Shown one piece after another: positions 8,295 to 59,489 of a stretch of 64,000 bases of DNA. Location: assembly GCA_963755815.1 (NCBI GenBank), contig CAVWLF010000001.1, forward strand, positions 1 to 64,000, in the 5' to 3' direction. Origin of the DNA: an uncultured Actinomycetes bacterium. GTDB taxonomy: Bacteria; Actinomycetota; Actinomycetes; Streptosporangiales; Streptosporangiaceae. The position numbers and the translations under genes are program-made. The notes under the pieces were generated by a model. It searched no databases and was not told where the DNA came from. It saw only the letters and a list, made by a program, of their open reading frames with translations. The stretch's first letter is position 1. The number at the start of each line of letters is the position of its first letter.

Positions 8295-8342
8295 TCCCGC
8301 ACGCTAGCCTGACCCCCGCCGCGGCGGTGATGAGGCCTCGCC

Positions 8343-9005: not shown

Positions 9006-9054
9006 CCGCTCAGAGATCGTCCGGCCGCCCTCGAAGTCCAACTAGCGCGGGCCG

Positions 9055-44700: not shown

Positions 44701-44736
44701 CAGCGGCCCCTGCCGGTCACTGTCCGCCCGGTCCAT
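42635..44736 (-). pseudogene. tandem paralog (copy 2) of the polytopic membrane protein, interrupted by a 1-nt deletion near 43150
   Basis: ORF 42955-44736 matches the N-terminal two-thirds of copy 1. The C-terminal domain (PPAIDRPIAADHSGSLVVDIPYGLRGG...) continues in another frame (ORF 42635-43846). Copy 1 has 30 nt (ATGCCGACCTCGCTGCCCGCCGTCGACCGG) where copy 2 has 29. Confidence 0.65.
42659..42754. repeat. 4 x 24-bp tandem repeat at the 3' end of copy 2
   Basis: Units start at 42659, 42683, 42707 and 42731 ((G/A/C)CGGT(A/G)TACC(C/T)(G/T)CACGCCG(C/T)CCG(C/G)). They encode (D/G)GV(K/R)V(Y/H)R(P/A) octapeptides. Copy 1 has a single unit (40709-40732). Confidence 0.85.
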
Positions 44737-44769: not shown

Positions 44770-45801
44770 TTACAGTCGTCCTTCGCTAACGGCCTGCTCA
44801 ATCCACGGAATGACCTCGTCGAGCATCTCGTCGAGCGTGGTGGTGGCCCGGTAGCCGAGCACCCGCCGGGCCTTCTCGACGTCAGGAACCCGCCGTTGCA
44901 CGTCGTGCTCGTACGGCTGCTCAGCCACGAAGCGGAACGGCACATCCGGGCCCTTGACCTTGCGCCAGATGAGCCCGGCCAGGTCGAGCACGGTCGTCGA
45001 CTCCGCGGTCGACAGGTTGAAGTCCTCATTGACCGTGCCCGGGTGCAGCAGCGTGGCGACGATCCCGCGGGCCAGGTCACCGCCGTAGGTGTAGTGCCGG
45101 ATCTGGTCGCCCTGACCGAGGATGCGCAGCGGATCCTGGCCCTTGAGCACCTTCTGCACGAGATCGGGAACGACATGCGACATGGCCAGCCGGACGTTTC
45201 CGGACAGCACCTCGGCCTGGCCAAGCGCCCGTCCCTCGCCGATGCCAACGCAGTTGAACGGGCGCACGATCGTGTACGGCAGCTGGTACTGGTCCCACGC
45301 GGCGCGGGCGAAGTACTCCACGGCGAGCTTCTGGAAGCCGTACGAGGAGCGCGGCGGCGGGATCCGCCGCTCGTCCCCCTCCCGGGACGGCCAGTTGTCC
45401 GTGCTCTCGTACACCATGGAGGAGCTGACATAAGTCATCTTTTGCAGCGTGCCGGATTTATGCGCCCGCAGCGCCGCGTCGCAACTCGACGCGATGATCC
45501 GCTCGTTAGTGGCGAGCAGATCGTAGGCATAGGCGTGAAAGTAGCTAATTCCTCCGATCATCGCGGCTCCGGCGATGAAGTGATCGCACCCTTCCAGTAG
45601 CTCGGCCAGCAAGCCGGCCTCAGCGGCGTCGCCTTCAACAAAATGGTGGTTCGGGTGGTCATCGAAACTATGCTTCACCGGCCCGTACTTGGAGAAGTTG
45701 TCGACCCCGACCACGGTGTGGCCCTGATCGAGCAACTCCTGAACCACGTAGCCGCCGATGAAGCCAGCCGAGCCGGTGACAAGAACCTTCGCCACGAACA
45801 C
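44770..45801 (-). CDS. NAD-dependent epimerase/dehydratase (extended SDR; UDP-sugar modifying)
   Basis: Rossmann motif VTGSAGFIGG, catalytic YGFQK (YxxxK), 343 aa. Confidence 0.9.
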   Translation of the reverse strand: MFVAKVLVTGSAGFIGGYVVQELLDQGHTVVGVDNFSKYGPVKHSFDDHPNHHFVEGDAAEAGLLAELLEGCDHFIAGAAMIGGISYFHAYAYDLLATNERIIASSCDAALRAHKSGTLQKMTYVSSSMVYESTDNWPSREGDERRIPPPRSSYGFQKLAVEYFARAAWDQYQLPYTIVRPFNCVGIGEGRALGQAEVLSGNVRLAMSHVVPDLVQKVLKGQDPLRILGQGDQIRHYTYGGDLARGIVATLLHPGTVNEDFNLSTAESTTVLDLAGLIWRKVKGPDVPFRFVAEQPYEHDVQRRVPDVEKARRVLGYRATTTLDEMLDEVIPWIEQAVSEGRL

Positions 45802-45852
45802 TCCTTCGTCGCAGTACTCGTATCTGGTCTCAGTACTCGCATGTAGGTCAGT

Positions 45853-46605
45853 TCAGCGCGGTGCCGCGGCATCGCTTTCCCGGCGCGCGGTCAGTTTCTC
45901 CAGGGTCAGCCGCGGGCCGAAGGCGAAGCGATACCAGTGCAGGTAGCCAGGCAGCCATTGCACCAAGTCGAAGCGGGACTCCCCGAACGAGCGATCCAGC
46001 CAGATGGTCGGGATCTCGGCGACCGGGCGTCCCAGCCTGGTGGCCTTCGCGGTGAGCTCGAGGCCGATCTCGAATCCGGCTCGCGAGTCAATTCCTACCT
46101 GCCGCACGAACTCGGTCGAGTAGGCCTTGAAGCTATTGGTGGCGTCCCTCGTGCCGACCCGGGCGAGCAGCCGCAGTGACTTGCCCGCCGATCTGGACAG
46201 CAGGCGCTTGAGCTTCGGGCCGCCAACCTGCTGGCCGCCCGGCATATACCGGGATGCGGCGGCGACCGCAACCCCCCGTTCCACTAGCCGGGCCAGGTCG
46301 TCGATCTGCCGCGGGTCGTCGCTGCCATCCGCCATCGTCACCACGGTGACCGGCGACCGCGCCTCGTCGAAGCCGGCCCGGATGGCGTTCGCGGGACCGG
46401 GACCGTAGCCATTGAGCACGCCGCGCACGCGCGCGTCCGCGCTGGCCACCTTCTCGATGTAGGGGACCGTGGTGTCGTCTGGCCGGTCGTAGACGACGAG
46501 TACCTCACACGGCGACGTCACCGCGGCCAGCACCCGGTCCAGGCACGGGCGAATGGCCTCGCCCTCGTTGTAGACCGGAATCACCACAGTGATCTCGGGA
46601 CTCAT
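45853..46605 (-). CDS. family 2 glycosyltransferase, polyprenyl-phosphate sugar synthase-like (DPM1/ArnC-like)
   Basis: ITVVIPVYNEGEAI, the DxD-type MADGSDDP, and a size of about 250 aa without TM segments. The ATG overlaps the dehydrogenase stop (ATGA). Confidence 0.88.
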   Translation of the reverse strand: MSPEITVVIPVYNEGEAIRPCLDRVLAAVTSPCEVLVVYDRPDDTTVPYIEKVASADARVRGVLNGYGPGPANAIRAGFDEARSPVTVVTMADGSDDPRQIDDLARLVERGVAVAAASRYMPGGQQVGGPKLKRLLSRSAGKSLRLLARVGTRDATNSFKAYSTEFVRQVGIDSRAGFEIGLELTAKATRLGRPVAEIPTIWLDRSFGESRFDLVQWLPGYLHWYRFAFGPRLTLEKLTARRESDAAAPR

Positions 46606-47816
46606 ACCCGCATGCCTCTTCCGGTCACGCCCCACAGGTCCGCGACCGGCTTGTCGGTGACCAGGTCGCGATATTCCGGATGAGGTGCGGCAACGATCAG
46701 CAGGTCGGCGCGCTCAAGCACCTCGGCCAGCGATGTGAACCGCTTATCGGTGATGTAGGGGTCCGAGCACAGGACCTCGTTCGCCTTGAGAATCAGAATT
46801 TTACGGAGCTTATAGGACAAACTCTCCCGCGAGTCATCGCTGCCGGCCTTGAAGCCCATTCCCAGGACCCCGACGGTGAGTGCGGCGAGATCGTAGCGGG
46901 TCTCCAGCCGGGAGACGAGGTAGAGCGGGAGACCCTCATTGATCAGCATTGCCGAGTGGCCGAGCACGAATTTGTTCTGGTTGAATGCCGCGAGCTGCAT
47001 CGTGTCCTTGAGCAGGCACGGGCCGGCCGCGAAGCCCGGCCCCGGCATATCGGCGGCCCGCGGATAGTCGTGCCGGATGGCCCAGCGTATCCGCTCAAAA
47101 TCTAGCCCGTAGTCATTCGCCATCATCCAGAACTGATTGGCCGTCGCGAATTTGATGTACCGCCAGGTGTTGGTGAAAAGCTTAGCGAGCTCGGCTTCCT
47201 CGGGTTGCAGCCGGACGACCTCATTAGTCAGGATGCGGAAGAACTTTTCCGCCCGGTCGCCAGCACGGTCAGTGCGGGCACCGACGATTTGCGGCAGGTC
47301 GAACAGCTCCTCCATGGCATGTCCCTCGGCGATGCGCTCGGGGCAGAAAGCTATATCCACGTCGATGCCGCGTTTGCTGAGCATGCGCTCGGTCAATGCG
47401 GTGACCGTCGGGTGAATGGTGCTGCGCAGAATGACGAGCTGGCCGTCGACCAGATATTCGGCGCACCGGTCCAGGGCGGCCGGCACCGCGCCCAGGTCCG
47501 GGTTGAGATGCTCGTCAACCGGGGTCCCGACGACGACAACGAGGATCTCGGCGGTACCGACCACCGCCGGGTCGGTCGTGGCCGTGAGCCTGCCTGCGCA
47601 CACGGCCGCGCGCAGCGGCTCCTCGGCACCTTCCTCGGTGAACGGCATGCGCGCATTGCTGACAATTTCTACCGCAGCCGCGTTGAGGTCATATAGGCGC
47701 ACCGATAGGCCGCGCGAAGCCAAGGCCACGCCAAAGGGGAGGCCGACGCGCCCGCAGCCGCCAATGATCGCCACATCGGCCGAGAAGGATGGGGGGGCCT
47801 GCTTGTCCGTTGGCAT
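46602..47816 (-). CDS. nucleotide-sugar dehydrogenase (UDP-glucose/GDP-mannose dehydrogenase family)
   Basis: N-terminal VAIIGGCGRVGLPFG Rossmann motif and a catalytic Cys context GFAAGPCLLKD. Start at MPTDKQ (ATG 47816). Confidence 0.9.
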   Translation of the reverse strand: MPTDKQAPPSFSADVAIIGGCGRVGLPFGVALASRGLSVRLYDLNAAAVEIVSNARMPFTEEGAEEPLRAAVCAGRLTATTDPAVVGTAEILVVVVGTPVDEHLNPDLGAVPAALDRCAEYLVDGQLVILRSTIHPTVTALTERMLSKRGIDVDIAFCPERIAEGHAMEELFDLPQIVGARTDRAGDRAEKFFRILTNEVVRLQPEEAELAKLFTNTWRYIKFATANQFWMMANDYGLDFERIRWAIRHDYPRAADMPGPGFAAGPCLLKDTMQLAAFNQNKFVLGHSAMLINEGLPLYLVSRLETRYDLAALTVGVLGMGFKAGSDDSRESLSYKLRKILILKANEVLCSDPYITDKRFTSLAEVLERADLLIVAAPHPEYRDLVTDKPVADLWGVTGRGMRV

Positions 47817-47850
47817 GCTGTTCCTCGTCCGTTGGCATGCTGTTACTCGT
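47807..47850. repeat. 2 x 22-bp tandem duplication spanning the dehydrogenase start codon
   Basis: CCGTTGGCATGCTGTT(C/A)CTCGT at 47807-47828 and 47829-47850, 21/22 identical. Each copy carries a CAT (ATG on the minus strand). Confidence 0.75.
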
Positions 47851-48067
47851 TCGGGCGCAGACATAACGTCATCCGGCGGCTAGTTAAACTGCTGCGGAAA
47901 ACTACCGCAGCAGTCCCGCACCGCCTCGATGGTCCGCAGGCACCGGATTTCCCCGATTCCTTCCGAAGCCGAAGTGTACCTACCGGCGGCGTAACGTAAA
48001 AATCCATTACTTTACCGAGATCTGCACTTGGGGCGCACTTGACGTACGTCAATATTCCAGTGGTGAT

Positions 48068-48709
48068 CTATTTACCCAGGCCGGGAGGCGGCGGGCAATG
48101 CTTTGCCAATAGCACCGGCGCCGAATCCGCCGGCCGGCCCGGAAGCGGCCCGCCGACCCGGTAGCGGCGGCCGTCGAGCGCCGAGCACCCCGACCAGCAG
48201 GTAGCTCGCCGTGGTGGCGAGCGCCGTGACGATGGCAAACGATCGTGCGTCCTGGCCGTACCAGCTGATCTCCGGCAGCGCGGCGAAGAAACCAGCCCGG
48301 CGAAGAGCCCGGCCCGCGGCGACACCAGCCGCCGCCCGATCGCCGCCACCCCGGCCGCCGCCGCGGCCATCGCCAGCGCCGACGGCAGCCGGGTGGTGAA
48401 CTCGCTGCTGCCGCCAAGCCGCACCACGACCCAGATGATCATGTAGTAGGCGCCGTGCACGGCGTCAGTGTGGCCCAGTATCCGGATCAGGGCGCCGAAC
48501 GGGCGGCGCACCGCCGCCAGGGTGGCGCCCTCATCCCGCCAGTACGACGGGGTAGTGATCCGCCAGAGCATCAGCGTGAGCGTGGCCGCCGGCGGGACGG
48601 CCCGCATCCAGAGCGGGCCGCCGGCGGCCTGATCCGGCGGCCGCCGGGCCGCTCCGGCCGTCTCCCCGGCTGGCCTGTCCAGGACGGCAGGCCGGCCAGC
48701 TGACGACAT
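48068..48709 (-). pseudogene. truncated, frameshifted N-terminal fragment of a GT-C mannosyltransferase-like (PMT_2/GT39-like) gene
   Basis: The first ~135 aa (TPSYWRDEGATLAAVRRPFGALIRILGHTDAVHGAYYMIIWVVVRLGGSSEFTTRLPSALAMAAAAAGVAAIGRRL) match the conserved start of actinobacterial membrane mannosyltransferases. Sensible sequence then continues in another frame (FFAALPEISWYGQDARSFAIVTALATTASYLLVGVLG) and stops after about 200 aa in total. Confidence 0.6.
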
Positions 48710-48796: not shown

Positions 48797-49801
48797 TCAG
48801 GCTCCGCGCATGGCCCGGATTGATTCCCGCAGTGACCCCATCGTGGCGAGCACGGCGGACGGCTCGTACCCGCAATGGGCCATGCAGTTGGAGCACCGCT
48901 CGTCCTTGCCGCGGCCGTAGGCGTCCCAGTCGGTGGTCTCGATGAGCTCCTTGTACGTCTTCACGTAGCCGTCGGCCATCAGGTAGCACGGCTTCTGCCA
49001 GCCCAGCAGGGAGTACGACGGGATGCCCCAGGCGGTGCAGCCGAAGTCGGTCTTGCCCTCCAGGAAGTCCAGGAACATCGGCGAGTGATTCAGCCGCCAG
49101 CGCTTCCGGTTGCCGTTGTCGAACGCCTTGCGGAACAGCTCCCTGGTCTCGGTCACGCCGAGGAAGTGCTCCTGGTCCGGTGCCTTCTCGTAGGCGTAGG
49201 CCGGCGAGATCATCATGTCGCTGACCTTGAGGTCGTCGTTGAGGTAGTCGAGCACGTCGATGACGGTCTGCGGGGTGTCGGTGTTGAAGACCGTCGTGTT
49301 CGTGGTGACCCGGAAGCCGCGGCGCTGGGCTTCCCTGATCGCCGCGACCGCCTCGTCGAAGACACCGTCCTTGCAGACCGATGCGTCGTGCCGCTCGGCC
49401 AGGCCGTCAATGTGCACGGTCCAGGCGAAGTACCGGGACGGCGTGAACTTGTCGATGTGCTTGGGCAGCAGCAGCGCGTTAGTGCACAGGTAGACGTACT
49501 TCTTGCGCTTGACCAGTTCTTCCACCAGCACGTGGATCTGCGGGTGCATCAGCGGCTCACCGCCGGCCAGGGAGACCATCGGCGCGCCGCATTCCTCGAT
49601 CGCCGCCAGCGCCTGCTCCACCGGCATCCGCTGCTTCAGCAGGCTGGCCGGCTGCTGGATCTTGCCGCAGCCGGCGCACTTCAGGTTGCACGCGAACAGC
49701 GGCTCCAGCTCAACGATCAGCGGGAACTTCTCCCGCCGGGCGAGCTTCTGGCGGGCTAGGTACGCCCCGACCCGGATGCTCTGGCGCATGGGGATACTCA
49801 T
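48797..49801 (-). CDS. hpnH: adenosylhopane synthase, radical SAM (HpnH)
   Basis: 334 aa. Radical-SAM cluster motif [11 protein letters not shown], and HpnH-typical N-terminus [31 protein letters not shown]. Located in the hopanoid operon. Confidence 0.92.
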
Positions 49802-51303
49802 GTTTGCCTTACCTCCTTGGGCAGGCCGAACCGGATGTTCTCAGTAGCGACGACGCGCTCGCTCACCTCGACCGGGCCGAGGCCGCCGAGCGCGGCGATA
49901 ATCTCGTCGACGACGGACGGCGGCGCCGAGGCGCCGGCCGTGAGCCCGATCGTCGACACTCCAGCCAGCCAGCCGAGCTCGATGTCCTCAGGGCCATCGA
50001 TCAGGTAAGCGGGCCTGCCAGCCCGCTCCGCCGTCTCCACCAGGCGGCGCGAGTTGGAAGAGTTGGCCGACCCGGCCACGAGCACCAGGTCGGATTCGGC
50101 GGCCACGGCACGGACCGAGAGCTGCCGGTTGGTGGTGGCGTAGCAGATGTCGTCGCTGCCGGGCCCGCGGGCGGCCGGGAACCGTTCGAGCAACTCCCCG
50201 ACGAGCCCGCCGGCCTCGTCGGCCGACAGCGTGGTCTGCATCAGGTAAGCCACCTTGCCGGGATCCTCGGGGCGCAGGCCGGCCACGTCGGCCTCGTTTT
50301 CGACCAGGACAGTTGAACCGGGCGCCTCGCCCAGCGTGCCCTCGACTTCCTCGTGGCCGGCGTGCCCGATGAGCGCGACCAGATAGCCGTCGGCGGCGAA
50401 CCGGCGGGCCTCCACATGCACCTTGGACACCAGCGGGCAGGTGGCATCGACGGTTTCCAGCCCGCGCCGGGCCGCCTCGTCCCGCACCGCCGGCGACACG
50501 CCGTGCGCGGAGAACACCGTCACGGCACCGTCCGGAACCTCGCTCAGCTCGTCCACGAAGATCGCGCCGCGGCGCTCCAGGCCCGCCACCACATGGGTGT
50601 TGTGCACGATCTGCTTACGCACGTAGACCGGCGGACCGTGCTGATCAAGCGCCCGCTCGACGATCTCGATCGCCCGCTCGACCCCGGCGCAGAAGGACCG
50701 CGGCCCGGCCAGCACCACCCGCCGCCGCCCGGCCGCGGCCGCCCAGCTGGCGAGCGCGGGCGCGGCCAGCCGCAGGGAGCGCAGCGCCGCGACCCCGCCG
50801 GCCAGGCCCGCCGGGCTCAGCAGCGGCCGCTGCGGCGTATCCGATACGGCCCGGAGCACGATCGCGGGCCGGTCGGCGGCCGCCGCGAGCAGCTGCGCCG
50901 ATTCCATATCGGCCACCAGCGCGCCGGTGCGCGCGAGCCGCTCCCGCTCGGCGCCGTGCACCAGGTGATCGACGGTGACGATCTGGCCGGCCCGGGCGTT
51001 CAGCCCGGCCCGCCGCAGCTCGCCCGCCAGCAGCGGGGCCGACGGGCAGCTGATGGCTGCCGCCCCGGAGCCACTGACCTGCGTGCCAACGACGAGGTCG
51101 CCGGGCGACAGGTCGCCGGAGAGGCCGCCGCCGGTTCCGGCGATGGCCAGCATCCCAAACGAGCCCGGGCGGAGCTTCGCCGCCGCCGAGGCCGATTTCA
51201 CCGGCCCGTAGCCGGTCTGCCTGACCTCGGCGCCGGAGCCGATGCCGCGCCGCACGGCGCGCGCTTCCAGCCGGAGCGGCGAGCAGACGAGCAGCCGGTT
51301 CAT
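49798..51303 (-). CDS. ispH: fusion protein: N-terminal nucleoside phosphorylase-like domain (HpnG-like) + C-terminal 4-hydroxy-3-methylbut-2-enyl diphosphate reductase (IspH/LytB)
   Basis: Residues ~1-190 look like the PNP_UDP_1 family ([14 protein letters not shown]...[10 protein letters not shown]...LRAVSD). Residues ~200-500 carry IspH motifs ([45 protein letters not shown]). Start at MNRLLVC (ATG 51303). The stop overlaps the hpnH start. Confidence 0.85.
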
Positions 51304-51385
51304 CGCATTCCTCCGCTCGGCCCGGCGGGCGCGCCGGGGGCCCGCCCGCCCGCGATTAGCCCGCCCGCGGTCAGCGACGGCCGGC

Positions 51386-53443
51386 TCATCCCGCACCGGC
51401 CAGGTAGCGGCCCAGCGCGCTGACCGGGAAGACCAGGCGGTACAGGTGGTAATTGATGTAGAAGTCACCCGGGAACCCGGTGCCGGTGTACTGCGGCTCG
51501 TCCCAGGTACCGTCCGGGCGCTGATGACTGGCCAGCCAGCGGACGCCGCGCTCTACGCAGGCCGCGTCATCCGCGCTGTCCCCGTCCCCGCTGGCCCCGT
51601 CCCCGTTGTTCCCGGCGCGGCCGGCCGCGCCGTGGCTGCTGCCGGTCTCGCCGTGGCCGGGTCCGGCGGCCGTGGAGCCCTGGCTCGCGGCCAGCAGCGC
51701 GAGCAGCGCCCATGCCGTCTGCGACGCCGTCGACTCGCCGCGCCCGGCCAGGCCCGGGTCGTCATAGGACCGCAGGTCCTCGCCCCAGCCGCCGTCCGGA
51801 TTCTGGTGCTCCCGGAGCCAGGCCACGGCCCGCCTGATCGGCGGCTTGCCGGGCAGCACGCCCGCGGCGATCAGCGCGGGCACCACCGCGCCGGTACCGT
51901 ACACGTAGTTCGCTCCCCACCGGCCGAACCAGGACCCGTCGTCCTCCTGCGCCCGCAGCAGCCAGGCCACGCCGCGGCGCACCGCCTTGCTGCCCGCCAG
52001 GCCCGCCGCGGCAAGCGCCTCGATGGTGTGCGCCGTGACATCCGCGGACGGCGGGTCGATCACCTCGCCGAAGTCGCAGAACGGCAGCTTGGCCACGATC
52101 TTCCTGGTGTTGTCCGCGTCGAAGGCGCCCCAGCCCCCGTCCCGGGACTGCATGCCGGTCAGCCAGCGGAGGCCGCGCGCCGTGGCCGCGGCCGACCGCG
52201 GCTCGGCGGCCGGGTCGACCCGCCGGAGCGCGAGCACCACCTCGGCGGTGTCGTCGATGTCCGGGTAGCCGTCGTTGTCGAACTCGAAGGCCCAGCCACC
52301 CGGGCTGAGCCCGGGCCGGCGGGCCTGCCAGTCACCCGGCCCGCGGATCTCCTCGCCGGCCACCCAGCGGGCCGCTGACGCCAGCGCCGGATGGTCGGCC
52401 GGAAGGCCGGCGTCGGAAAGCGCGATCATCGCCAGCACGGTGTCCCAGACCGGCGACTGGCATGCCTCCAGCCGCCTGGTCGGGCCGTCCGGCCCGTCGG
52501 CCCAGATGGTGAACCGGTCCAGCCCGGCCAGGCCGCGCTTGATCACCGGATGCTCCAGGCCGTAGCCCAGCAGGTGCAGCGCGATCAGCGAGTACACCCA
52601 GGGCGGCTGAATCCCGCCCCAGCAGCCATCGGCCTCCTGCCGGGCGATGATCCACTCCGCGCAGCGCCGCAGGGCCGCGGTCCGGACCGCGCGCATCGGG
52701 CGGGTTTGCTCGCCATGCCGGTGGTAGGCGTGCAGCACGCGGTCAAGCCCGCCGAAGAAGGCCGGCCAGCCCGGCCGCGGCAGGCCCCCGGCGCGGGCCG
52801 CGGCCGGCCCGGGGCCCGGATCAGGCGCGGCCGGCCACAGCTCGGGCAGCGCAAAGGGCAGCGAGCGGACGGGGCGCAGCGATCCGACAATGGTCAGCGG
52901 GACGATCGTCTGCCTGGCCCAGCAGGCCCAGTCCTGCACGTTCAGCGGGAACCAGCCGGGCAGGTAGATCATCTCCGGCGGCATCACCGGGAGCTCGTCC
53001 CAGGACCACTCGCCGAAGAGGGCCAGCCAGATCCTGGTGAACACGCGGGTGGCGGGAATGCCCCCGGCCGCGCGGATCCAGCCCGCCGCCCGCGCCATGT
53101 GCGCGGCGTCCGGCGAGTCGCCGGCCAGCCGCAGCGCGACGTAGGCCTCGACGGTGGTGGAGAGGTCAGCGTCGCCCTGGTAGTAGTTCGCCCAGGTCCC
53201 GTCCGCTCGCTGCCGGGACCTGATCCACCGCGCCGCGGCCGCCGTCTCCGGCTCCGCCCGGATGCCGAGGAACTCGCGGAGGAGCAGGTCCTCCGCATCC
53301 ATGGTGACGTTGGTCTCCAGCTCGCCCTGCCACCAGCCGCCGGGGTGCTGCAGGTCAAGCAGATGACGGGCGGCCAGGTCCAGCGCCGTCCGCGCGACCT
53401 CGGGCGCCGCCTGCCCGCCGGGGCGTGCCTGCGTCACCGTCAT
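51386..53443 (-). CDS. shc: squalene-hopene cyclase
   Basis: 685 aa. Catalytic DxDDTA context ([15 protein letters not shown]) and repeated QW motifs ([57 protein letters not shown]). Confidence 0.95.
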
Positions 53444-53524: not shown

Positions 53525-54556
53525 TCAGCTCTGCCGCGCCGTGATGAACTCGGCGATCCCCGCGAACTCCGCCCGTACGTCATCGGGCATGTCGGTCGCG
53601 GCCAGGCACTCGCCGGCCGAGGCGAGCTGCACATCCGCCTCCGCCTCGACCCAGGCCCGGCCGCCGGCCGCCTCGACCAGGTCAGCGGCCCGCAGCAGGT
53701 CGTCCTCGCCGAGCGGCCCGGTGGAACTCAGCAACTCGCCGAGCTCAGCGCCCGCCTCGGTGCCGCTGGTCAGCGCCGCGACGACCGGAAGTGACTTCTT
53801 CCTGGCCCGCAGGTCGGAGCGGACCGGCTTGCCGGTGACCTCGGGGGCGCCCCAGATGCCGAGCAGGTCGTCGGTGAGCTGGAACGCGAGCCCGGCGTGC
53901 GCGCCGAACCCGGCCAGGCCCATGGCCAGCTCGGCCGGGGCGCCGACGTAGATCGCCCCGATGCTGCAGGCGCACGCCATCAGCGCGGCGGTCTTGTCAC
54001 CCGCCATCTCCAGGCACTCATCCAGCGTCACGTCATCGCGCCGCTCGAAGGCCAGGTCCGCGCCCTGGCCCGCGATCAGCCGCTGGACCGAGGCGGACAG
54101 GCAGCGGGACGCCCACAGGCCCTGCGGCGCCGGGCCCTCCAGCAGCATGTCCTGGGCGAGCACCAGGAGGGCGTCGCCGGCCAGGATGGCCGCTCCCACG
54201 CCGAACACCGTCCACGCCGTCGGCCGGTGCCTGCGTTCGGTGTCGCCGTCCATGATGTCGTCGTGCACGAGGGAGAAGTTGTGCACGAGTTCCACCGCCG
54301 CCGCGGCGGCCACCCCGCGCTCGGGCGCGGTTCGGGCCGCCCGGGTGGACAGCAAGGCGAATGCGGGCCGCAGCGCCTTGCCCATCCCGCCGGGCCGGCC
54401 GTCGGTACCGGTCGGCTGGCCCGCCGCGTCCGCCAGGCCGAGGTGGTAGGCGGCGACGGATCGCACGTCCGGGCTCAGCCGGCTGACCGCGGCGGCGATC
54501 GCCGGTCCGACCAGATCGCGGGCCGTCTCAACGCCGGCCGGCATGGTGGCCGTCAT
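53525..54556 (-). CDS. polyprenyl diphosphate synthase (probable farnesyl diphosphate synthase of the hopanoid operon)
   Basis: First and second Asp-rich motifs LVHDDIMDGD and FQLTDDLLG. The ATG overlaps the hpnE stop (ATGA at 54553-54556). Confidence 0.9.
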   Translation of the reverse strand: MTATMPAGVETARDLVGPAIAAAVSRLSPDVRSVAAYHLGLADAAGQPTGTDGRPGGMGKALRPAFALLSTRAARTAPERGVAAAAAVELVHNFSLVHDDIMDGDTERRHRPTAWTVFGVGAAILAGDALLVLAQDMLLEGPAPQGLWASRCLSASVQRLIAGQGADLAFERRDDVTLDECLEMAGDKTAALMACACSIGAIYVGAPAELAMGLAGFGAHAGLAFQLTDDLLGIWGAPEVTGKPVRSDLRARKKSLPVVAALTSGTEAGAELGELLSSTGPLGEDDLLRAADLVEAAGGRAWVEAEADVQLASAGECLAATDMPDDVRAEFAGIAEFITARQS

Positions 54557-56004
54557 GACGGCGCTCCGGCCCCGGCCGGCGCAGGCGTGCCCGCCGGGCA
54601 GGCCAGCTCCCGGCCAGGCGGCCAGGCCAGGCCTCGTCTCAGTTCCCGCGCCGCATTCAGCCCGCTTCGCACTGCGCCCTCCATGGTGTCCGGCCAGCCG
54701 GTATCGGTCCACGCGCCGGCCAGCACCAGCCCGGGCAGGCCGGTGGCCGCGGCCGGCCGTAGCTGACCGCACCCCGGCGCCTGGCGGAATGTCGCCTGGC
54801 GCTCCCTGGTCACGAAGAAATCGGTAATCTGCGCCTGCCGGGCCGCCGGGAATAGCTCCGCCAGCGCGGGCACGAATTGCTCGCGCAGCCGCGCGGCGGG
54901 GACGTCGATGTAGTCGTCCGCGGCCGACAGCGACACCGCGAGGTACTGGCCGCCCGGCTGGCCCGAGGATGCGGTCTTGTCGAAGACCCACTGCACCGGG
55001 GAGTCCACCGCGGCGGCGAACGGCAGCCTGGTGACCCGCCGGTCGTAGATGACATGCACATTGACGATCGGCGATGAGCCGAGCGCGGCCCACCGGGTTT
55101 CGCCGGCCGCGGCCGGCATCAGGCGCGCGGCCGGCCCGGGCGGCACGGCGATCACCACGCCGTCGGCGGGCAGCGACGACTGCGCGCGATCGGCGCCGGC
55201 CGCGGCGGTGACGCTCAGCCCGCCGCCTGGCCCGGGCGTGACGGCGACCGCGGCCGTGCCGAGCCGCACCTCGGCTCCGAGTTCCGCCAGCAGCGTCGCG
55301 GCGGCGGTGCCGTGCAGTTCGCCGAGCGGAACCGCCGGCACCCCGATGTCAGCGGCATCCCGGGCGCCGAGCAGGGCCATCCGGACCACGGTGGCGGCCA
55401 GCGCCAGGCTCGCGTCATCGCCGGCGATGTTCAGGGCCGAGACGACGAAGAGATCCCACAGCACCCGGCGGGCCCGCTCGCCCTGGCCCCGGGCGGCCAG
55501 CCAGTCCCCGAGCCGCTCGCTGTCCAGGCCGGGCCGGGCCGGGTTGAGGAAGCGCATGGCCAGCGCGGCCCGGGCCACGCCGAGCCGCGCCGCGGGCGAG
55601 AGCAGCGAGTATCCGGCCAGCGCCCGGCCCATCTGCAGCGGGCCGGGCAGTGCGGTCCGGCGCAGCCGGGCCGTGCCGCCGGGGGAAAGCACGGTGATGT
55701 CAAAGCGATCCTGGATCGTGGCCGAGCCCGTCATGCCGAGCCTGGCCAGCAGGCCCCGGTAGGCACTGCAGCAGCGGAGGAAGACATGCTGGCCGTTGTC
55801 GATGACCAGGCCGTCCCGGCTGAAGGAGCTGGTCGCCCCGCCCAGCCTGGGCCTGGCCTCCAGCAGCGTGACGCCGACGCCCGACTCCCGCAGCGCGATA
55901 GCGGCGGTGATCCCGGCCAGACCGCCGCCGATCACCACCACGCTGCGGCCGGGCGCGGCATCGCCTGGCCGGGGGGCGGGCCCGCCGCCGGCCGGGGCGC
56001 TCAT
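54553..56004 (-). CDS. hpnE: hydroxysqualene dehydroxylase (FAD-dependent amine-oxidase/phytoene-desaturase family, HpnE)
   Basis: FAD dinucleotide motif VVVIGGGLAGITAAIALRESG, and its position between hpnD and the prenyl synthase. The ATG overlaps the hpnD stop. Confidence 0.88.
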   Translation of the reverse strand: MSAPAGGGPAPRPGDAAPGRSVVVIGGGLAGITAAIALRESGVGVTLLEARPRLGGATSSFSRDGLVIDNGQHVFLRCCSAYRGLLARLGMTGSATIQDRFDITVLSPGGTARLRRTALPGPLQMGRALAGYSLLSPAARLGVARAALAMRFLNPARPGLDSERLGDWLAARGQGERARRVLWDLFVVSALNIAGDDASLALAATVVRMALLGARDAADIGVPAVPLGELHGTAAATLLAELGAEVRLGTAAVAVTPGPGGGLSVTAAAGADRAQSSLPADGVVIAVPPGPAARLMPAAAGETRWAALGSSPIVNVHVIYDRRVTRLPFAAAVDSPVQWVFDKTASSGQPGGQYLAVSLSAADDYIDVPAARLREQFVPALAELFPAARQAQITDFFVTRERQATFRQAPGCGQLRPAAATGLPGLVLAGAWTDTGWPDTMEGAVRSGLNAARELRRGLAWPPGRELACPAGTPAPAGAGAPS

Positions 56005-56909
56005 GCCGCCGCCACCGGGCCGGCGGGCGGCAGCACCACTGGCATCACGCCCGCCAGCGAGCGCACCGCGACGATGGCCTTCTCCCCCGCCGACAGCGAC
56101 AGCCGGCGCTGCAGCGCCGCGGCCGGCTCCGCGCTGATGTGCCCGAGCAGCCGGACGTAGATGCCGGCCATCGCCCCGGCGCACGCCGCGCTGCGCCGGT
56201 CAAGCAGCGGCAGCAGCCGCAGCCCGGTGGCATACCAGCCGCGGGCGCGATCGGCCTCGAACCGCACCACGTCCTCCAGCTGGGCGCTGGCGGGCAGGCC
56301 GGTGGTGCCATCCGGGGCCAGTGCCGTGCCGAAGCGCGCGAGGTCGTCGGCGGGCAGATAGACCCGGCCGGTGCCGAAATCCTCCCGGATGTCCCGCAGG
56401 ATGTTGGTCAGCTGCAGCGCCACGCCCAGCGCATCGGCCAGCGGCGCCGCCACGGCCGTGTCCGGGCAGCCGAACACGCCCAGCGACAGCCGCCCGATCG
56501 AGCCGGCCACGCACCGGCAGTAGTGCTCAAGGTCGTCAAACGTGGCGTACGTGGTGCCCCGCACGTCCGCCTCGCAGCCGTCGATGAGCTCACCGAAGGC
56601 ATCGAGCGGGATCGCGAACTGGGTGGCCGCGTCGGCCAGCGCGACGAGCACCGGGTCAGCGGAGGTGCCCGCGGCCGGCCCGGACAGTGCGGTCACGCTG
56701 GCCCTGGCCTCCGCGAGCGCCGCCAGCTTGCTGGCGGCGGGCAGGGTGCCGTCACCGATGTCATCGACCCGCCGCGCGAACGCGTACACGGCGGACAGCG
56801 CGCGGCGCTTGGCCGCGGGCAGCAGCCGGATTCCGTAGGAGAAATTCCTCGCCTGCGTCCTGGTGATCTGCTCACAGTGCTGATACGCGGCACGCACCTC
56901 GATCGGCAT
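56001..56909 (-). CDS. hpnD: presqualene diphosphate synthase (HpnD; squalene/phytoene synthase family)
   Basis: ARNFSYGIRLLPAAKRRALSAVYAFARRVDDIGD and the second Asp-rich region (NILRDIREDFGTGRVYLP). Start at MPIEVRAAY (ATG 56909). Confidence 0.88.
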   Translation of the reverse strand: MPIEVRAAYQHCEQITRTQARNFSYGIRLLPAAKRRALSAVYAFARRVDDIGDGTLPAASKLAALAEARASVTALSGPAAGTSADPVLVALADAATQFAIPLDAFGELIDGCEADVRGTTYATFDDLEHYCRCVAGSIGRLSLGVFGCPDTAVAAPLADALGVALQLTNILRDIREDFGTGRVYLPADDLARFGTALAPDGTTGLPASAQLEDVVRFEADRARGWYATGLRLLPLLDRRSAACAGAMAGIYVRLLGHISAEPAAALQRRLSLSAGEKAIVAVRSLAGVMPVVLPPAGPVAAA

Positions 56910-56931
56910 CGGAACCCGGGTGTCCACCGCG

Positions 56932-58026
56932 TTACCGTCCCGTCGCATAGCAGCGCAGCAGTTCCGCCACGGTCCGGCGCGCGCGGGGGCGCGGCGTGGC
57001 CCTGAGCACATCGTGATCGGCGGCCGCGATCGCGGCCAGCGCGGCCCGGCCGCCGGCCACGTATCCGGCCACGGCCGCCCGGGCGAACCCGCGCAGCGTG
57101 CCGACCAGCGGAGCGCCGGCATCGAGCAGCGCCCGGGCCCGCTGCGTCTCGAACCCGACCAGCGCGCGCAGCGCGGGCGACGACCGGGGCGCGGAAAGGT
57201 CGGACTCGGCGCAGCCGTACCTGGTCATGTCCTCGCCGGGCAGGTAGATACGCCCGGCCCGGAAGTCCTCGCCGACGTCCTGCCAGTGCTCGGCCAGCTG
57301 CAGCGCGGTGCAGACCTGATCGGAGAGCGCGGCCCGGGCCGGGGAGAACGCGCCGAAGGCATACAGCACAATCCGGCCGACCGGATTGGCCGAAAGGCGG
57401 CAGTATCCCTGCAGGTCATCGAATGTCGGATAGCGGGTGACCAGCTGGTCCTGCCGGTTGGCCTGGATCAGGTCCAGAAAGGGCTGCGGCGGGATCGCGC
57501 ACTGGCTGACGACCGGGCCGAGTGCGCGGATCACGCTCAGTTCCGGGCCGCCGCCCTGGCCCGCGTCCCGGTGGCCCGCCTCGTCCCGGTGACCCGCAGC
57601 GGCCTGATCCGCAGCGGGCCCCCCAGCGCCCGCCCGGTCCGCATCCGGCAGGCCCGCGCCCGCCTGGTCCGCATCCGGCGGGCTCGCACCCGCCCCGTCC
57701 GCATCCGGCAGGCCCGCGTACAGCCTGCCCAGGTCGGCCTCCAGCTCATCGAGCAGGCGGGCCCGCTCGGCGACCGGAGCGCGGTCCCCGATGTCATCGG
57801 CCGTGCGGGCGAAGCCGTAGACGGCCATCAGGTGCTGCCGGTGGCGCGCGGGCAGCAGCCGGAGGGCGACCGGGAAATTCTCGCCCGCCGACCGGGCCGC
57901 CATCGCCGCCTGGATACCCGGCCCGGTGGCCGGCGAAGGGCCGGTTGATGCCGGGCCCCCGTCGGCCGCGACCGCGATTGTGTCAGCCGACAGGCCGGAT
58001 TCCCGGTCGGGGAACCCGGTGCCCAT
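56932..58026 (-). CDS. hpnC: hydroxysqualene synthase (HpnC; squalene/phytoene synthase family) with internal repeat insertion
   Basis: GENFPVALRLLPARHRQHLMAVYGFARTADDIGD and HWQDVGEDFRAGRIYLP. Start taken at ATG 58026 because the upstream ORF extension is AT-rich with low GC3. Confidence 0.85.
   Translation of the reverse strand: MGTGFPDRESGLSADTIAVAADGGPASTGPSPATGPGIQAAMAARSAGENFPVALRLLPARHRQHLMAVYGFARTADDIGDRAPVAERARLLDELEADLGRLYAGLPDADGAGASPPDADQAGAGLPDADRAGAGGPAADQAAAGHRDEAGHRDAGQGGGPELSVIRALGPVVSQCAIPPQPFLDLIQANRQDQLVTRYPTFDDLQGYCRLSANPVGRIVLYAFGAFSPARAALSDQVCTALQLAEHWQDVGEDFRAGRIYLPGEDMTRYGCAESDLSAPRSSPALRALVGFETQRARALLDAGAPLVGTLRGFARAAVAGYVAGGRAALAAIAAADHDVLRATPRPRARRTVAELLRCYATGR
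57607..57726. repeat. 4 x 30-bp in-frame tandem repeat inside hpnC
   Basis: Units start at 57607 (degenerate), 57637, 57667 and 57697. Core GTCCGCATCCGGC(A/G)GGC(C/T)CGC. They encode (L/P)PDAD(G/Q/R)AGA(S/G)-type decapeptides. Confidence 0.75.
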
Positions 58027-58388: not shown

Positions 58389-59489
58389 TCAGGCCCGCCA
58401 GATGAGAACCAGCGCGCAGTCGTCCGAGCTGCGCGCGCCCGCCTGCATGGACCGGACCAGCGCCCCGGCCCCGGCCCCGAAGCCCGATGCCACCAGCCGG
58501 TCCGCCTCGCCGAGCAGCCGGTCAATCCCGGCGTCAATGTCCCGGCCCGGCACTTCCACCAGCCCGTCGGTGTAAAGCATCAGCGCGTCACCCGGCCGCA
58601 GCGCGCCGCGTTCCGGAACGCTACGCAAATCGGGAACCACGCCGAGGACGATCCCCCGGGCCTGGGTAATCCGCCAGGTCCCGGCGCCCGCGTCAAAATG
58701 CGCGGCCGGCGGGTGCCCGGCAGAAGCGACAATGTAGTCCCCGGTCGCGAGGTCCAGCGACAGGTGCACGGCGGTGACGAAACCCTCCGTGGATGGCCCG
58801 CGCCGCAGATAGGCATTGCACGAAGCGAGAAACTCGCCGCGGGGCACGGAGCCAAGGAGCCCGCCGAATGCGCCGGATAGCAGCAGCGCACGGGTGCCGG
58901 CGTCGATCCCCTTTCCGGGCACGTCGACCAGCGCCACCTCAAGGGTCTTGCCGTCGCAGGCGGAGACCAGGAAATCGCCGCCGAACGACGCCCCGTCGGC
59001 CGGCTGCAGGATCGAGGTCGATTTCCAGCCGGGCGGCAGCGCGGGCAGCTTGCCCTGCGCCCGGATCCGGTCCCGCAGCTCGATCAGCATCTGGTCCCCG
59101 CGCAGGCCCTGCACGCCGAGCTTGGCCCGGGTCCTGGCCAGGACAAACGCGAACGCGGCAGTGATCACGATGGTCGCGATGATGCCAGGAGGAGCCCGGC
59201 CCGCCATCACGTCGTAGGCCAGCGTGGCTGCGACGACGCCGAACAGGACCAGCAGCGCGCGGGGCCAGAGCAGCAGGCCGCCGGCCATGATGGGCAGGAT
59301 CATCACCCCGGCCGGGAACCACGACTGGGACACGTGCCCGCCCGCGATGCCGATGCCCACGGTGACGGCGGCCAGCACGACGAAGAGCCGCCGGTTCCTG
59401 GTAATGAACTGCCGCCGAACCCAGCCGCGCACCCGTGCCGCGGCCGCCTGCGCGGCGCGGAGCTGGCGGTGCGGCACCGAGGTAACCAT
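58389..59489 (-). CDS. membrane-anchored PP2C (SpoIIE-type) serine/threonine phosphatase
   Basis: Start at MVTSVPHRQL (ATG 59489). About 4 TM helices, then PP2C motifs FGGDFLV, DVPGKGIDAG and LYTDGLVE. The longer ORF-track extension overlaps the plus-strand TGT-like gene and is rejected. Confidence 0.85.
   Translation of the reverse strand: MVTSVPHRQLRAAQAAAARVRGWVRRQFITRNRRLFVVLAAVTVGIGIAGGHVSQSWFPAGVMILPIMAGGLLLWPRALLVLFGVVAATLAYDVMAGRAPPGIIATIVITAAFAFVLARTRAKLGVQGLRGDQMLIELRDRIRAQGKLPALPPGWKSTSILQPADGASFGGDFLVSACDGKTLEVALVDVPGKGIDAGTRALLLSGAFGGLLGSVPRGEFLASCNAYLRRGPSTEGFVTAVHLSLDLATGDYIVASAGHPPAAHFDAGAGTWRITQARGIVLGVVPDLRSVPERGALRPGDALMLYTDGLVEVPGRDIDAGIDRLLGEADRLVASGFGAGAGALVRSMQAGARSSDDCALVLIWRA

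What the first reader, a model, noticed from the sequence alone, without database searches (positions are those of the whole stretch)
49798..51303. Single ORF fusing an HpnG-like nucleoside phosphorylase domain to IspH inside the hopanoid operon
- Seen: one uninterrupted 501-codon frame. Its first ~190 residues resemble the PNP/UDP phosphorylase family ([24 protein letters not shown]). The remainder is a full IspH with all three Cys contexts.
- Established: HpnG removes adenine from adenosylhopane, the product of HpnH, which is the next gene. IspH makes IPP/DMAPP.
- Inference: a physical fusion would tie precursor supply to side-chain maturation. It also means the operon carries its own MEP-pathway terminal enzyme.
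Basis: partly seen in the sequence, partly recalled or inferred. Interest (0 to 1): 0.5.

Follow-up and report, generated by a model that had tools for sequence, protein, structure and literature searches.

The report
Fused HpnG–IspH hopanoid operon enzyme
A real, conserved actinomycete gene joins the enzyme that trims the hopanoid side chain (HpnG) to an extra copy of the last enzyme of isoprenoid precursor synthesis (IspH); the architecture was noted once before in Frankia, so it is a solid but only moderately novel find.

Summary
On the minus strand, 49798-51303 is one 501-codon gene. Residues 1-192 form a complete MTAN/PNP-type nucleosidase domain whose best family match is HpnG. Residues 193-501 are a full IspH with every catalytic residue intact. 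The gene lies in the operon hpnC-hpnD-hpnE-ids-shc-[fusion]-hpnH.

It is not a sequencing artefact. The same fused frame, in the same gene order, occurs in 48 of the 51 species loci that hold both domains entire, and in 120 metagenomic protein clusters. The junction has a fixed length. In close pairs both halves show dN/dS of about 0.1-0.35.

The architecture is already recorded: Rao et al. 2015 listed a "UDP/PNP phosphorylase-IspH" in three Frankia strains as a possibly random oddity, with no link to hopanoids.

New here:
- The fusion is widespread in actinomycete hopanoid operons.
- It has decayed in both directions. Some relatives keep HpnG plus only IspH domain 3, or only the IspH tail. 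Encapsulin-operon IspHs keep a vestigial HpnG.
- The IspH tail codons (P-K-E-V) encode the ribosome-binding site of hpnH.

Most likely it is a bifunctional enzyme with two independent active sites and an accessory IspH copy. No evidence supports substrate channelling. Interest is moderate.

The parts
49798..51303 (-). Whole hpnG-ispH fusion CDS (501 aa plus stop codon)
   Evidence: ORF list and translation. Pfam and NCBIfam domain hits. Full-length orthologues in related species loci and 120 protein clusters. AF2 model: pLDDT 89.7, pTM 0.87.
50728..51303 (-). N-terminal HpnG-like NP-I nucleosidase/phosphorylase domain (residues 1-192)
   Evidence: - PF01048: 37 bits, above the 25.1 cut-off.
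- TIGR03468 HpnG: 65.4 bits, E 5e-18. It is the best NP-I family but below the 187.1 cut-off.
- E13, D132, E134, R151 and D155 are invariant in 47 fused orthologues.
- These residues align with the MTAN M-E and R-x-x-S-D motifs.
50734..50814 (-). Long C-terminal helix of the HpnG domain (residues 164-190), running with a 3-residue turn into the first IspH strand: a rigid, linker-less junction
   Evidence: AF2 secondary structure shows helix 164-190 then strand 194-199, with pLDDT 93-98 at the junction. The junction has fixed length in the orthologues displayed.
49801..50727 (-). Complete IspH (LytB) domain, residues 193-501
   Evidence: - PF02401: 297.6 bits. TIGR00216: 290.2 bits, above the 187.85 cut-off.
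- phmmer to E. coli IspH 3KE8: E 1e-95 over 305 residues.
- C205, H234, H267, C289, H317, E319, T357, C387, S415, S416, N417 and S459 correspond to E. coli C12, H41, H74, C96, H124, E126, T167, C197, S225, S226, N227 and S269.
- Ten of these are invariant in all 47 fused orthologues; S416 and N417 are kept in 46 of 47.
49811..49818 (-). AAGGAGGT Shine-Dalgarno of hpnH, embedded in codons K496-E497-V498 of the conserved IspH C-terminal tail (F-x-L-P-K-E-V)
   Evidence: Read directly from the sequence. An SD-like motif (in most loci the same AAGGAGG) lies 7-10 nt before the hpnH start in 46 of 51 related loci. The tail motif is a genuine IspH feature (E. coli ...NIVFEVPKELR).
51308..51314 (-). 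GGAGGAA Shine-Dalgarno of the fusion gene, 6 nt upstream of ATG 51303
   Evidence: Read directly from the sequence.
48797..49801 (-). hpnH (adenosylhopane synthase, radical SAM); its start overlaps the fusion's stop as ATGA
   Evidence: TIGR03470: 529.9 bits, cut-off 225. PF04055 plus PF11946. The overlap is read from the sequence.
51386..53443 (-). shc (squalene-hopene cyclase), immediately upstream of the fusion
   Evidence: TIGR01507: 722.6 bits, cut-off 431.
53525..54556 (-). Polyprenyl diphosphate synthase (ids); its probable ATG at 54556 overlaps the hpnE stop as ATGA
   Evidence: PF00348: 179.9 bits. The closest NCBIfam model is the family-2 encapsulin cargo polyprenyl transferase (402.9 bits, below the 450 cut-off). 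Start candidates.
54553..56004 (-). hpnE (hydroxysqualene dehydroxylase); start uncertain, ATG 56004 is likely
   Evidence: TIGR03467: 402.9 bits, cut-off 283. Start candidates.
56001..56948 (-). hpnD (presqualene diphosphate synthase); start uncertain
   Evidence: TIGR03465: 294.4 bits, cut-off 278.6. Start candidates.
56932..57903 (-). hpnC (squalene synthase HpnC); start uncertain
   Evidence: TIGR03464: 288.2 bits, cut-off 250.45. Start candidates.

Best explanation
The gene encodes a bifunctional enzyme with two independent, catalytically competent active sites.

- **N-terminal domain.** Residues 1-192 are the actinomycete form of HpnG. It removes adenine from adenosylhopane, the product of the downstream-encoded HpnH, to give ribosylhopane or its 1-phosphate. 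Its catalytic set looks like that of MTA/SAH nucleosidase (Glu13, Asp132-Met133-Glu134, Arg151-x-x-Ser154-Asp155). A hydrolytic mechanism is therefore at least as likely as phosphorolysis (inference).
- **C-terminal domain.** Residues 193-501 are an ordinary [4Fe-4S] HMBPP reductase (IspH) that makes IPP and DMAPP.
- **Junction.** The halves are welded without a linker. The last HpnG helix runs straight into the first IspH strand, which belongs structurally to IspH domain 3.
- **What the fusion does (inferred).** It does not channel a substrate. It gives obligatory co-expression and 1:1 stoichiometry of an extra, operon-dedicated IspH with the hopanoid side-chain enzymes. IspH domain 3 also serves as a structural partner for HpnG. 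The last IspH codons double as the ribosome-binding site of hpnH, which couples translation of hpnH to that of the fusion.
- **Evolution.** The fusion appears ancestral to much of the actinomycete HpnG family sampled here. It has been resolved repeatedly, either by in-frame loss of IspH domains 1-2 or of all but the tail, or by decay of HpnG where hopanoid genes were lost.
- **Copy number (inferred).** The fused IspH is probably a second, accessory copy.
For: **Shown**
- Both domain assignments pass Pfam cut-offs.
- HpnG is the best NP-I family for all 69 homologues tested.
- In close pairs, dN/dS is about 0.07-0.25 for IspH and 0.10-0.35 for the N-domain.
- The synteny hpnCDE-ids-shc-fusion-hpnH holds, in whole or in part, in 56 loci.
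- AF2 gives pLDDT 89.7 and pTM 0.87, with no low-confidence linker.
- Class II relatives keep exactly IspH strand 1 plus domain 3. They fold confidently with HpnG (pLDDT 92.6, pTM 0.90) and sit in situ between shc and hpnH.
- The tail codons form the hpnH Shine-Dalgarno.

**Support for an accessory copy**
- Congeners in Nonomuraea, Micromonospora and Microbispora have lost the IspH part.

**Background**
- hpnG knockouts accumulate adenosylhopane, and phosphoribohopane has never been observed (PMC13459092).
Against: - No biochemistry exists for any member of this fused family.
- The N-domain scores far below the trusted cut-off of the curated HpnG model (65.4 versus 187.1 bits).
- Its relation to the genetically characterised S. 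coelicolor HpnG could not be tested.
- Whether the source genome has a second ispH could not be checked.
- The AF2 model of the class II protein used full-length IspH rows in its alignment, which favours an IspH-like domain 3.
Confidence: 0.75

Rival explanations
1. The fused IspH is the organism's only, housekeeping IspH, simply parked in the hopanoid operon. This is the arrangement in bacteria where a separate ispH gene sits next to shc and hpnH. The fusion would then be a neutral consequence of gene adjacency.
For: - ispH clusters with shc and hpnH as a separate gene in subdivision-1 Acidobacteria (PMC5462960).
- No second ispH is present in the 64-kb window.
- The IspH domain is under strong purifying selection.
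- In encapsulin-operon relatives IspH is the part that was kept.
Against: - Several genera with the intact fusion also contain species that deleted IspH domains 1-2, or nearly all of IspH, in frame while keeping the operon. Those species must have another ispH. By parsimony, so do their congeners.
- The junction has a fixed length, and IspH domain 3 is retained in 28 clusters. Both argue that the fusion is more than neutral adjacency.
Confidence: 0.2
2. The IspH moiety has been recruited for hopanoid side-chain chemistry. One candidate is the still unassigned reductive conversion of (phospho)ribosylhopane to bacteriohopanetetrol. The fusion would then join two consecutive steps.
For: - The enzyme that converts ribosylhopane to BHT is not established (PMC12583986).
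- IspH is a reductase.
- The fusion places it next to HpnG on the same polypeptide.
Against: - Every HMBPP- and diphosphate-binding residue of E. coli IspH is kept in the fused orthologues, with 52% overall identity.
- Lineages that keep hpnG and hpnH often delete the catalytic parts of IspH.
- Closely related IspHs (64-71% identity) work in encapsulin/polyprenyl operons that have no hopanoid genes.
Confidence: 0.04
3. One half of the window's protein is a non-functional relic. It would be either a dead HpnG vestige, as in the encapsulin-operon IspHs, or a dead IspH, as in class II proteins.
For: Such relics do exist among close relatives.
Against: - In the window protein both halves are full length with all catalytic residues present.
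- Both halves evolve under purifying selection.
- No other hpnG is present in the operon.
Confidence: 0.04
4. It is an assembly or sequencing artefact: a lost stop codon or a frameshift merged two adjacent genes, hpnG and ispH.
For: A few related MAG loci and proteins do show frameshifts in this gene (L044, L051, L053; P0011, P0019).
Against: - The same continuous frame appears in 48 independent species loci, including isolate genomes (Thermomonospora echinospora, Microtetraspora malaysiensis, Actinomadura, Prauserella, Micromonospora). It also appears in 120 metagenomic clusters.
- The junction sequence ...[22 protein letters not shown] has no room for a stop, a ribosome-binding site and a start.
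Confidence: 0.01

Closest known systems
'UDP/PNP phosphorylase-IspH' fusion of Frankia sp. QA3, EUN1f and EAN1pec (Rao, O'Dowd, Li, Wang & Oldfield 2015, Chem Sci; PMC4746011, Fig. 2d)
   Same: Same two-domain architecture (NP-I phosphorylase family at the N-terminus, IspH at the C-terminus) in Actinomycetota. A Pseudofrankia orthologue (L048, 56% identity) is in my set.
   Different: [quoted passage not shown] It did not connect it with hopanoids or HpnG. Here it is found in dozens of species across many actinomycete genera, nearly always next to hopanoid genes (between shc and hpnH where both flanks are held).
Stand-alone HpnG (TIGR03468, hopanoid-associated phosphorylase), defined genetically in Methylobacterium, Rhodopseudomonas and Streptomyces
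   Same: NP-I fold. It is the best-scoring NP-I family for the N-domain (E 5e-18). The genes are linked to shc and hpnH. The expected role is removing adenine from adenosylhopane.
   Different: The score is well below the model's trusted cut-off (65.4 versus 187.1 bits). Only profile positions 9-161 of 212 match. Here it is fused to IspH.
E. coli IspH/LytB (PDB 3KE8, 3ZGL)
   Different: It carries a 192-residue N-terminal enzyme domain. It is encoded inside a hopanoid operon. It is probably a second copy.
MTA/SAH nucleosidases (MTAN; PDB 5B7G, 4L0M, 4F1W, 4JOS)
   Different: Only 17-21% identity. The expected substrate is a C35 lipid nucleoside. The context is a hopanoid operon.
IspDF, IspH-RPS1 and IspH-UbiA 'Rosetta-stone' fusions of the MEP pathway
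   Same: A MEP-pathway enzyme is fused to a partner that does not catalyse the neighbouring step. The fusion reflects functional linkage and co-expression rather than channelling (PMC4746011; IspDF in PMC13001223).
   Different: The partner is a hopanoid side-chain enzyme. The fusion has been repeatedly and partially undone in evolution.
Separate ispH genes embedded in hopanoid (hpn) clusters, e.g. shc-hpnH-ispH in subdivision-1 Acidobacteria
   Same: ispH is genetically linked to shc and hpnH (PMC5462960).
   Different: There the genes are separate. Here ispH is translationally fused to hpnG.

Membership tests
IspH / LytB (PF02401; TIGR00216) | Score above the curated family cut-offs | tested here: met
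   PF02401: 297.6 bits against a cut-off of 24.5. TIGR00216: 290.2 bits against 187.85. Three narrower PRK01045 sub-models fall just under their cut-offs (425 versus 444, 406 versus 420, 388.2 versus 389).
IspH / LytB (PF02401; TIGR00216) | Three Cys ligands of the [4Fe-4S] cluster (E. coli C12, C96, C197) | tested here: met
   C205, C289 and C387 are invariant in 47 fused orthologues.
IspH / LytB (PF02401; TIGR00216) | HMBPP- and diphosphate-binding and catalytic residues (H41, H74, H124, E126, T167, S225, S226, N227, S269) | tested here: met
   H234, H267, H317, E319, T357, S415, S416, N417 and S459 are all present in the window protein. Seven are invariant in 47 orthologues; S416 and N417 are kept in 46 of 47. 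The residue list comes from my own knowledge of the E. coli structures.
IspH / LytB (PF02401; TIGR00216) | Trefoil of three alpha/beta domains | tested here: met
IspH / LytB (PF02401; TIGR00216) | HMBPP reductase activity | not testable with these tools
   Needs an enzyme assay or complementation of an ispH mutant.
NP-I nucleoside phosphorylase/nucleosidase superfamily (PF01048 PNP_UDP_1) | Pfam gathering score and NP-I fold | tested here: met
HpnG, hopanoid-associated phosphorylase (TIGR03468) | Score above the curated cut-off of the family model | tested here: not met
   65.4 bits against 187.1 (E 5e-18), matching profile positions 9-161 of 212. All 69 homologues hit this model, none with an E-value better than 2e-24, and for the window protein it is the best NP-I model. 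I therefore do not file the protein as a TIGR03468 member. I call it an HpnG-like actinomycete clade.
HpnG, hopanoid-associated phosphorylase (TIGR03468) | Gene linked to shc and hpnH in a hopanoid cluster | tested here: met
   It lies between shc and hpnH in the window and in the related loci that hold both flanks. Its stop overlaps the hpnH start.
HpnG, hopanoid-associated phosphorylase (TIGR03468) | Catalytic acid and ribose-binding residues of adenine-cleaving NP-I enzymes are conserved | tested here: met
   E13, D132, E134, R151 and D155 are invariant. M-E and R-x-x-S-D align with the MTAN motifs. The equivalence of E13 to MTAN Glu12 rests on topology only and is an inference.
HpnG, hopanoid-associated phosphorylase (TIGR03468) | Removes adenine from adenosylhopane; orthology to a genetically characterised HpnG | not testable with these tools
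   No sequence of a characterised HpnG could be retrieved, and the S. coelicolor paper is not held. An assay or complementation is needed.
MTA/SAH nucleosidase (NF004079) | Score above the curated cut-off | tested here: not met
   26.5 bits against 169. It is the structural nearest neighbour but not a family member.

The most novel reading that the evidence does not exclude
Much of the actinomycete HpnG family sampled here descends from an ancestral HpnG-IspH fusion, in which IspH domain 3 became an obligate structural partner of HpnG.
- This would explain why many lineages that discarded IspH catalysis still keep a precisely excised 'HpnG + IspH strand 1 + domain 3' protein.
- It would also explain why even the shortest forms keep the IspH tail, which carries the hpnH ribosome-binding site.
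- In the intact enzyme, the rigid coupling could allow cross-talk between hopanoid side-chain processing and IPP/DMAPP production, or assembly with HpnH around a shared electron donor.
- The family-2B encapsulin ids-ispH module would be a spin-off of a decayed hopanoid operon.
Probability: 0.3. Interest if true: 0.55.

Novelty: new member of a known kind. Interest (0 to 1): 0.38.

Why it matters
- **Annotation and surveys.** These roughly 500-aa proteins are named only "IspH" in public databases. That hides the HpnG step of actinomycete hopanoid pathways. The TIGR03468 cut-off also misses them, so genome surveys can under-call C35 hopanoid capacity in Actinomycetota. The naming also spreads errors: some 194-226-aa HpnG-only proteins are labelled IspH.
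- **Biochemistry.** The fused enzyme may offer a new route to HpnG, whose product and mechanism (hydrolase or phosphorylase) are still unverified.
- **Metabolic design.** It is a natural example of a pathway-dedicated IspH copy. This is relevant to MEP-pathway engineering, where IspH is a bottleneck.
- **Evolution.** The graded series of in-frame deletions is a clean case of how a Rosetta-stone fusion is dismantled. The dismantling respects both a protein-folding unit (IspH domain 3) and an embedded translation signal for the next gene.

Tried and rejected
**Searches that led nowhere**
- Four literature searches looked for an HpnG-IspH fusion, HpnG biochemistry and Frankia hopanoid clusters. 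No paper links this fusion to hopanoids. Only the 2015 Frankia mention exists.
- The S. coelicolor ribosylhopane paper (PMC4245026) is not held. I could not identify or compare the characterised Streptomyces HpnG.

**Limits of the tools**
The window has none.
- Model coordinates are not exposed, so HpnG-IspH contacts could not be measured.

**Ideas rejected**
- The 556-aa GTG start at 51468: it overlaps shc, lacks an SD, and orthologues start at MNRLL.
- The ids gene (53525-54556) as an encapsulin cargo protein. It resembles that family (402.9 bits, below the 450 cut-off). However, its real start leaves no N-terminal targeting extension, and no encapsulin gene is in the window.

**Caveats on my own analyses**
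- dN/dS for distant pairs is inflated by saturation and codon bias. Only close pairs (dS about 0.17-0.3) were used.
- 'Class III' counts include some contig-end fragments and frameshifted calls. Only members with the IspH tail motif or from isolate genomes are relied on.
Full report

Yes. It starts at ATG 51303 and stops at 49800-49798, giving 501 residues. The longest possible frame begins at a GTG at 51468. That start would overlap the end of the upstream squalene-hopene cyclase gene (stop at 51386). ATG 51303 is preceded by GGAGGAA at 51308-51314, and orthologues begin at the same MNRLL sequence.

Pfam places PNP_UDP_1 on residues 29-158 (37.0 bits, cut-off 25.1). It places LYTB on residues 196-472 (297.6 bits).

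The gene sits in a minus-strand operon:
- hpnC, hpnD and hpnE
- a polyprenyl synthase (ids)
- shc
- the fusion
- hpnH

Each neighbour except ids passes its NCBIfam equivalog cut-off. Three gene junctions are ATGA overlaps (hpnD/hpnE, hpnE/ids and fusion/hpnH), which is typical of translational coupling.

**2. Is it an artefact?**

No.
- A scan of one genome per species returned 56 loci with both domains, 51 of them entire. They come from Streptosporangiaceae and Trebonia MAGs and from isolates: Microtetraspora, Thermomonospora, Actinomadura, Nonomuraea, Microbispora, Prauserella, Saccharomonospora, Micromonospora, Dactylosporangium, Planosporangium, Pseudofrankia and Speluncibacter. One Solirubrobacteraceae MAG is also included.
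- The surrounding gene order matches the window's wherever the flanks are held.
- In 48 of the 51 loci holding both domains entire, the halves share one frame with no stop. The three exceptions are MFD-labelled MAGs, possibly indel errors.
- The protein database holds 120 clusters at 74-99% identity, almost all 484-542 residues long.
- The junction ...[22 protein letters not shown]... shows no length variation in the 19 orthologues displayed.
- The source organism is not in the species collection. The best locus match is 77% identical, and one metagenome protein is 99% identical. It appears to be an uncultured relative of the Streptosporangiaceae.

**3. What are the two halves?**

- Its best curated family is HpnG (TIGR03468, 65.4 bits, E 5e-18). 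The next best are a generic phosphorylase model (34 bits), futalosine hydrolase (28) and MTAN (26.5).
- All 69 homologues tested hit HpnG.
- The score is far below that model's trusted cut-off of 187.1. I therefore describe it as an HpnG-like actinomycete clade, not a TIGR03468 member.
- E13, D132, E134, R151 and D155 are invariant.
- M133-E134 and R151-x-x-S154-D155 align with the ribose-binding Met-Glu and the Arg/Ser-Asp catalytic motif of MTANs.
- This MTAN-like set suggests that hydrolysis to ribosylhopane is at least as plausible as phosphorolysis. A recent review notes that phosphoribohopane has never been observed (PMC13459092). This point is an inference.

*Selection.* In close pairs dN/dS is about 0.07-0.25 for the IspH half and 0.10-0.35 for the N-domain, so both halves are under purifying selection.

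**4. How are they joined?**

The AlphaFold model is confident throughout (pLDDT 89.7, pTM 0.87). It shows no flexible linker. The last helix of the nucleosidase domain (residues 164-190) turns within three residues into the first IspH strand (194-199). From my own knowledge of the E. coli structure, that first strand belongs to the third IspH lobe (D3). I did not verify this here.

**5. What relatives reveal**

I searched 1.84 billion representative proteins with the N-domain (569 hits at E<=1e-10). I then classified the hits with HMMs built from the fused orthologues. Three forms emerge.

| Class | Composition | Length |
|---|---|---|
| I | Full HpnG-IspH fusion | about 500 aa |
| II | HpnG + IspH strand 1 + IspH lobe D3 only; lobes D1 and D2, with two of the three cysteines, removed in frame (28 clusters) | about 290-330 aa |
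| III | HpnG followed only by the last IspH residues, ...F-x-L-P-K-E-V | about 195-230 aa |

- That tail is a genuine IspH feature. E. coli IspH ends ...NIVFEVPKELR.
- Example of class II: Nonomuraea sp. C10 P0085 matches the window protein at residues 1-178 (E 1e-40). It matches again at about residues 400-497 (E 7e-23), with SANSSNS degraded to GPAGSPE.
- P0085 and the class III protein of a Streptosporangium species both lie exactly between shc and hpnH.
- The classes interleave on a neighbour-joining tree of N-domains. Single genera hold several classes: Nonomuraea I, II and III; Micromonospora I and III; Microbispora I and III. The IspH part has therefore been deleted repeatedly and recently.
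- Those species must have another ispH. By parsimony, the fused IspH is an accessory copy in their class I congeners too. This is an inference; the source genome could not be checked.
- The class II protein is predicted to fold as confidently as the full fusion (pLDDT 92.6, pTM 0.90). This fits D3 being a structural partner of HpnG. One caveat is that full-length IspH rows were in that alignment.

**6. Why the tail always survives**

The codons for P-K-E-V read CCC AAG GAG GTx. That is the Shine-Dalgarno sequence of hpnH, 7-10 nt before its start codon. The window has AAGGAGGT at 49811-49818. An SD-like motif, in most loci the same AAGGAGG, is found there in 46 of 51 related loci. Deletions that removed IspH had to spare these codons to keep hpnH translated.

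**7. The reciprocal decay**

The 24 IspH-only loci from the species scan are not hopanoid loci. In 18 of them the flank holds family-2B encapsulin shell genes. Where the upstream flank is complete, the operon reads two SrpI-like/cNMP shell genes, a polyprenyl synthase, then IspH.
- In 14 of them the IspH carries a 100-190-residue N-terminal extension. That extension is significantly similar to the middle of the HpnG-like domain (E 1e-14 to 3e-5).
- By inspection of the extension sequences, the catalytic motifs appear to be missing.
- Where the hopanoid genes are absent, then, IspH was kept and HpnG decayed.
- The window's own ids gene is the nearest relative of the encapsulin cargo polyprenyl transferase family (402.9 bits, cut-off 450). 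This hints that the encapsulin ids-ispH module derives from a hopanoid operon.
- The main text of the main encapsulin survey does not mention IspH.

**8. Most likely mechanism**

The protein is a bifunctional enzyme with two independent active sites. One is HpnG-type removal of adenine from adenosylhopane. The other is ordinary HMBPP reduction. The two reactions are far apart in the pathway, so channelling is implausible.

The fusion most plausibly provides four things:
- obligatory co-expression of the two enzymes;
- 1:1 stoichiometry of a pathway-dedicated IspH with the side-chain enzymes;
- a structural scaffold (D3) for HpnG;
- translational coupling to hpnH.

The domain identities, conservation, synteny and embedded ribosome-binding site are shown. 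The activities, the scaffold role and the accessory status are inferred.

Rivals are scored in the report sections: a sole housekeeping IspH (0.2), IspH recruited for the unassigned ribosylhopane-to-BHT step (0.04), one half dead (0.04) and an artefact (0.01).

**9. Comparison with what is known, and novelty**

Rao et al. 2015 (PMC4746011) listed a "UDP/PNP phosphorylase-IspH" from three Frankia strains among rare IspH fusions. They thought it might be random, and they made no link to hopanoids. The architecture is therefore already on record, and databases name these proteins simply IspH. The window's gene is a new member of that known kind.

What this analysis adds:
- the HpnG interpretation;
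- the wide distribution and fixed operon position;
- the two-way decay series;
- the ribosome-binding site embedded in the IspH tail.

Practical consequences:
- HpnG is hidden in actinomycete annotations.
- Some HpnG-only proteins are mislabelled IspH.
- Surveys that rely on TIGR03468 will under-call this step (compare).

Interest is moderate. A specialist would find it tidy and useful rather than very surprising.

Noticed in passing
L057-L080 (e.g. L061:3821-5236, 5435-6841, 7953-9260; L069:7917-9257): The IspH-only relatives lie mostly in family-2B encapsulin operons: two SrpI-like/cNMP shell genes, a polyprenyl synthase, then IspH. In 14 of them IspH carries a vestigial, apparently non-catalytic remnant of the HpnG-like domain. 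This suggests that the module derives from a hopanoid operon.
   Followed up: partly
L081:10001-10900 (Nonomuraea sp. C10, P0085); L082:10001-10621 (Streptosporangium sp., P0072): In-frame deletion derivatives of the fusion sit in the same operon slot. One is HpnG plus IspH strand 1 plus domain 3 (299 aa). The other is HpnG plus only the IspH tail (206 aa). The first type occurs in 28 sequence clusters and is predicted to fold well (pLDDT 92.6).
   Followed up: yes
window 49811-49818 (minus strand): The conserved IspH C-terminal motif P-K-E-V is encoded by CCC AAG GAG GTA. This is also the Shine-Dalgarno of hpnH. The arrangement is conserved in 46 of 51 related loci.
   Followed up: yes
Proteins P0337 (226 aa) and P0361 (194 aa); all clusters: Public sources name the 500-aa fusions only 'IspH'. 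They even name some HpnG-only proteins of about 200 aa 'IspH'. The curated HpnG model (TIGR03468) misses the whole actinomycete clade at its cut-off, so hopanoid surveys may under-count HpnG in Actinomycetota.
   Followed up: partly
window 44770-48709 (minus strand): Downstream of hpnH lie four genes:
- a short PMT_2/GT39-like ORF (48068-48709, apparently truncated);
- a nucleotide-sugar dehydrogenase (46602-47864);
- a GT2 glycosyltransferase (45853-46635);
- an NAD-dependent epimerase with weak HpnA similarity (44770-45801; 41.8 bits, cut-off 367.65).
Together they could be a glycosylation module. No link to hopanoids is established.
   Followed up: no
window 40619-42544 and 42955-44736 (minus strand); 58389-60629 (minus strand): Three large ORFs (641, 593 and 746 aa) have no NCBIfam match; the 641- and 593-aa ORFs also have no Pfam match (the 746-aa ORF was not scanned against Pfam). 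The first two have coding-like GC3.
   Followed up: no
window 53525-54556 (minus strand): The operon's polyprenyl synthase scores best against the family-2 encapsulin cargo polyprenyl transferase model (402.9 bits, cut-off 450). However, it has no N-terminal targeting extension, and no encapsulin gene is in the window.
   Followed up: partly
L044, L051, L053, L021, L045, L060; proteins P0011, P0019, P0080, P0086: Several MAG copies of the fusion carry frameshifts or read-through. Sequencing or assembly indel errors seem the likeliest cause, rather than real pseudogenes.
   Followed up: no
window 54553-54556, 56001-56004, 49798-49801: Three ATGA start/stop overlaps (hpnE/ids, hpnD/hpnE, fusion/hpnH) indicate translational coupling along the hopanoid operon.
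   Followed up: partly
L048 (Pseudofrankia sp. BMG5.36) and L052 (Solirubrobacteraceae MAG): Gene order differs from the common pattern. In L048, hpnH lies about 4 kb downstream of the fusion rather than abutting it. In L052, shc lies upstream of hpnC.
   Followed up: no
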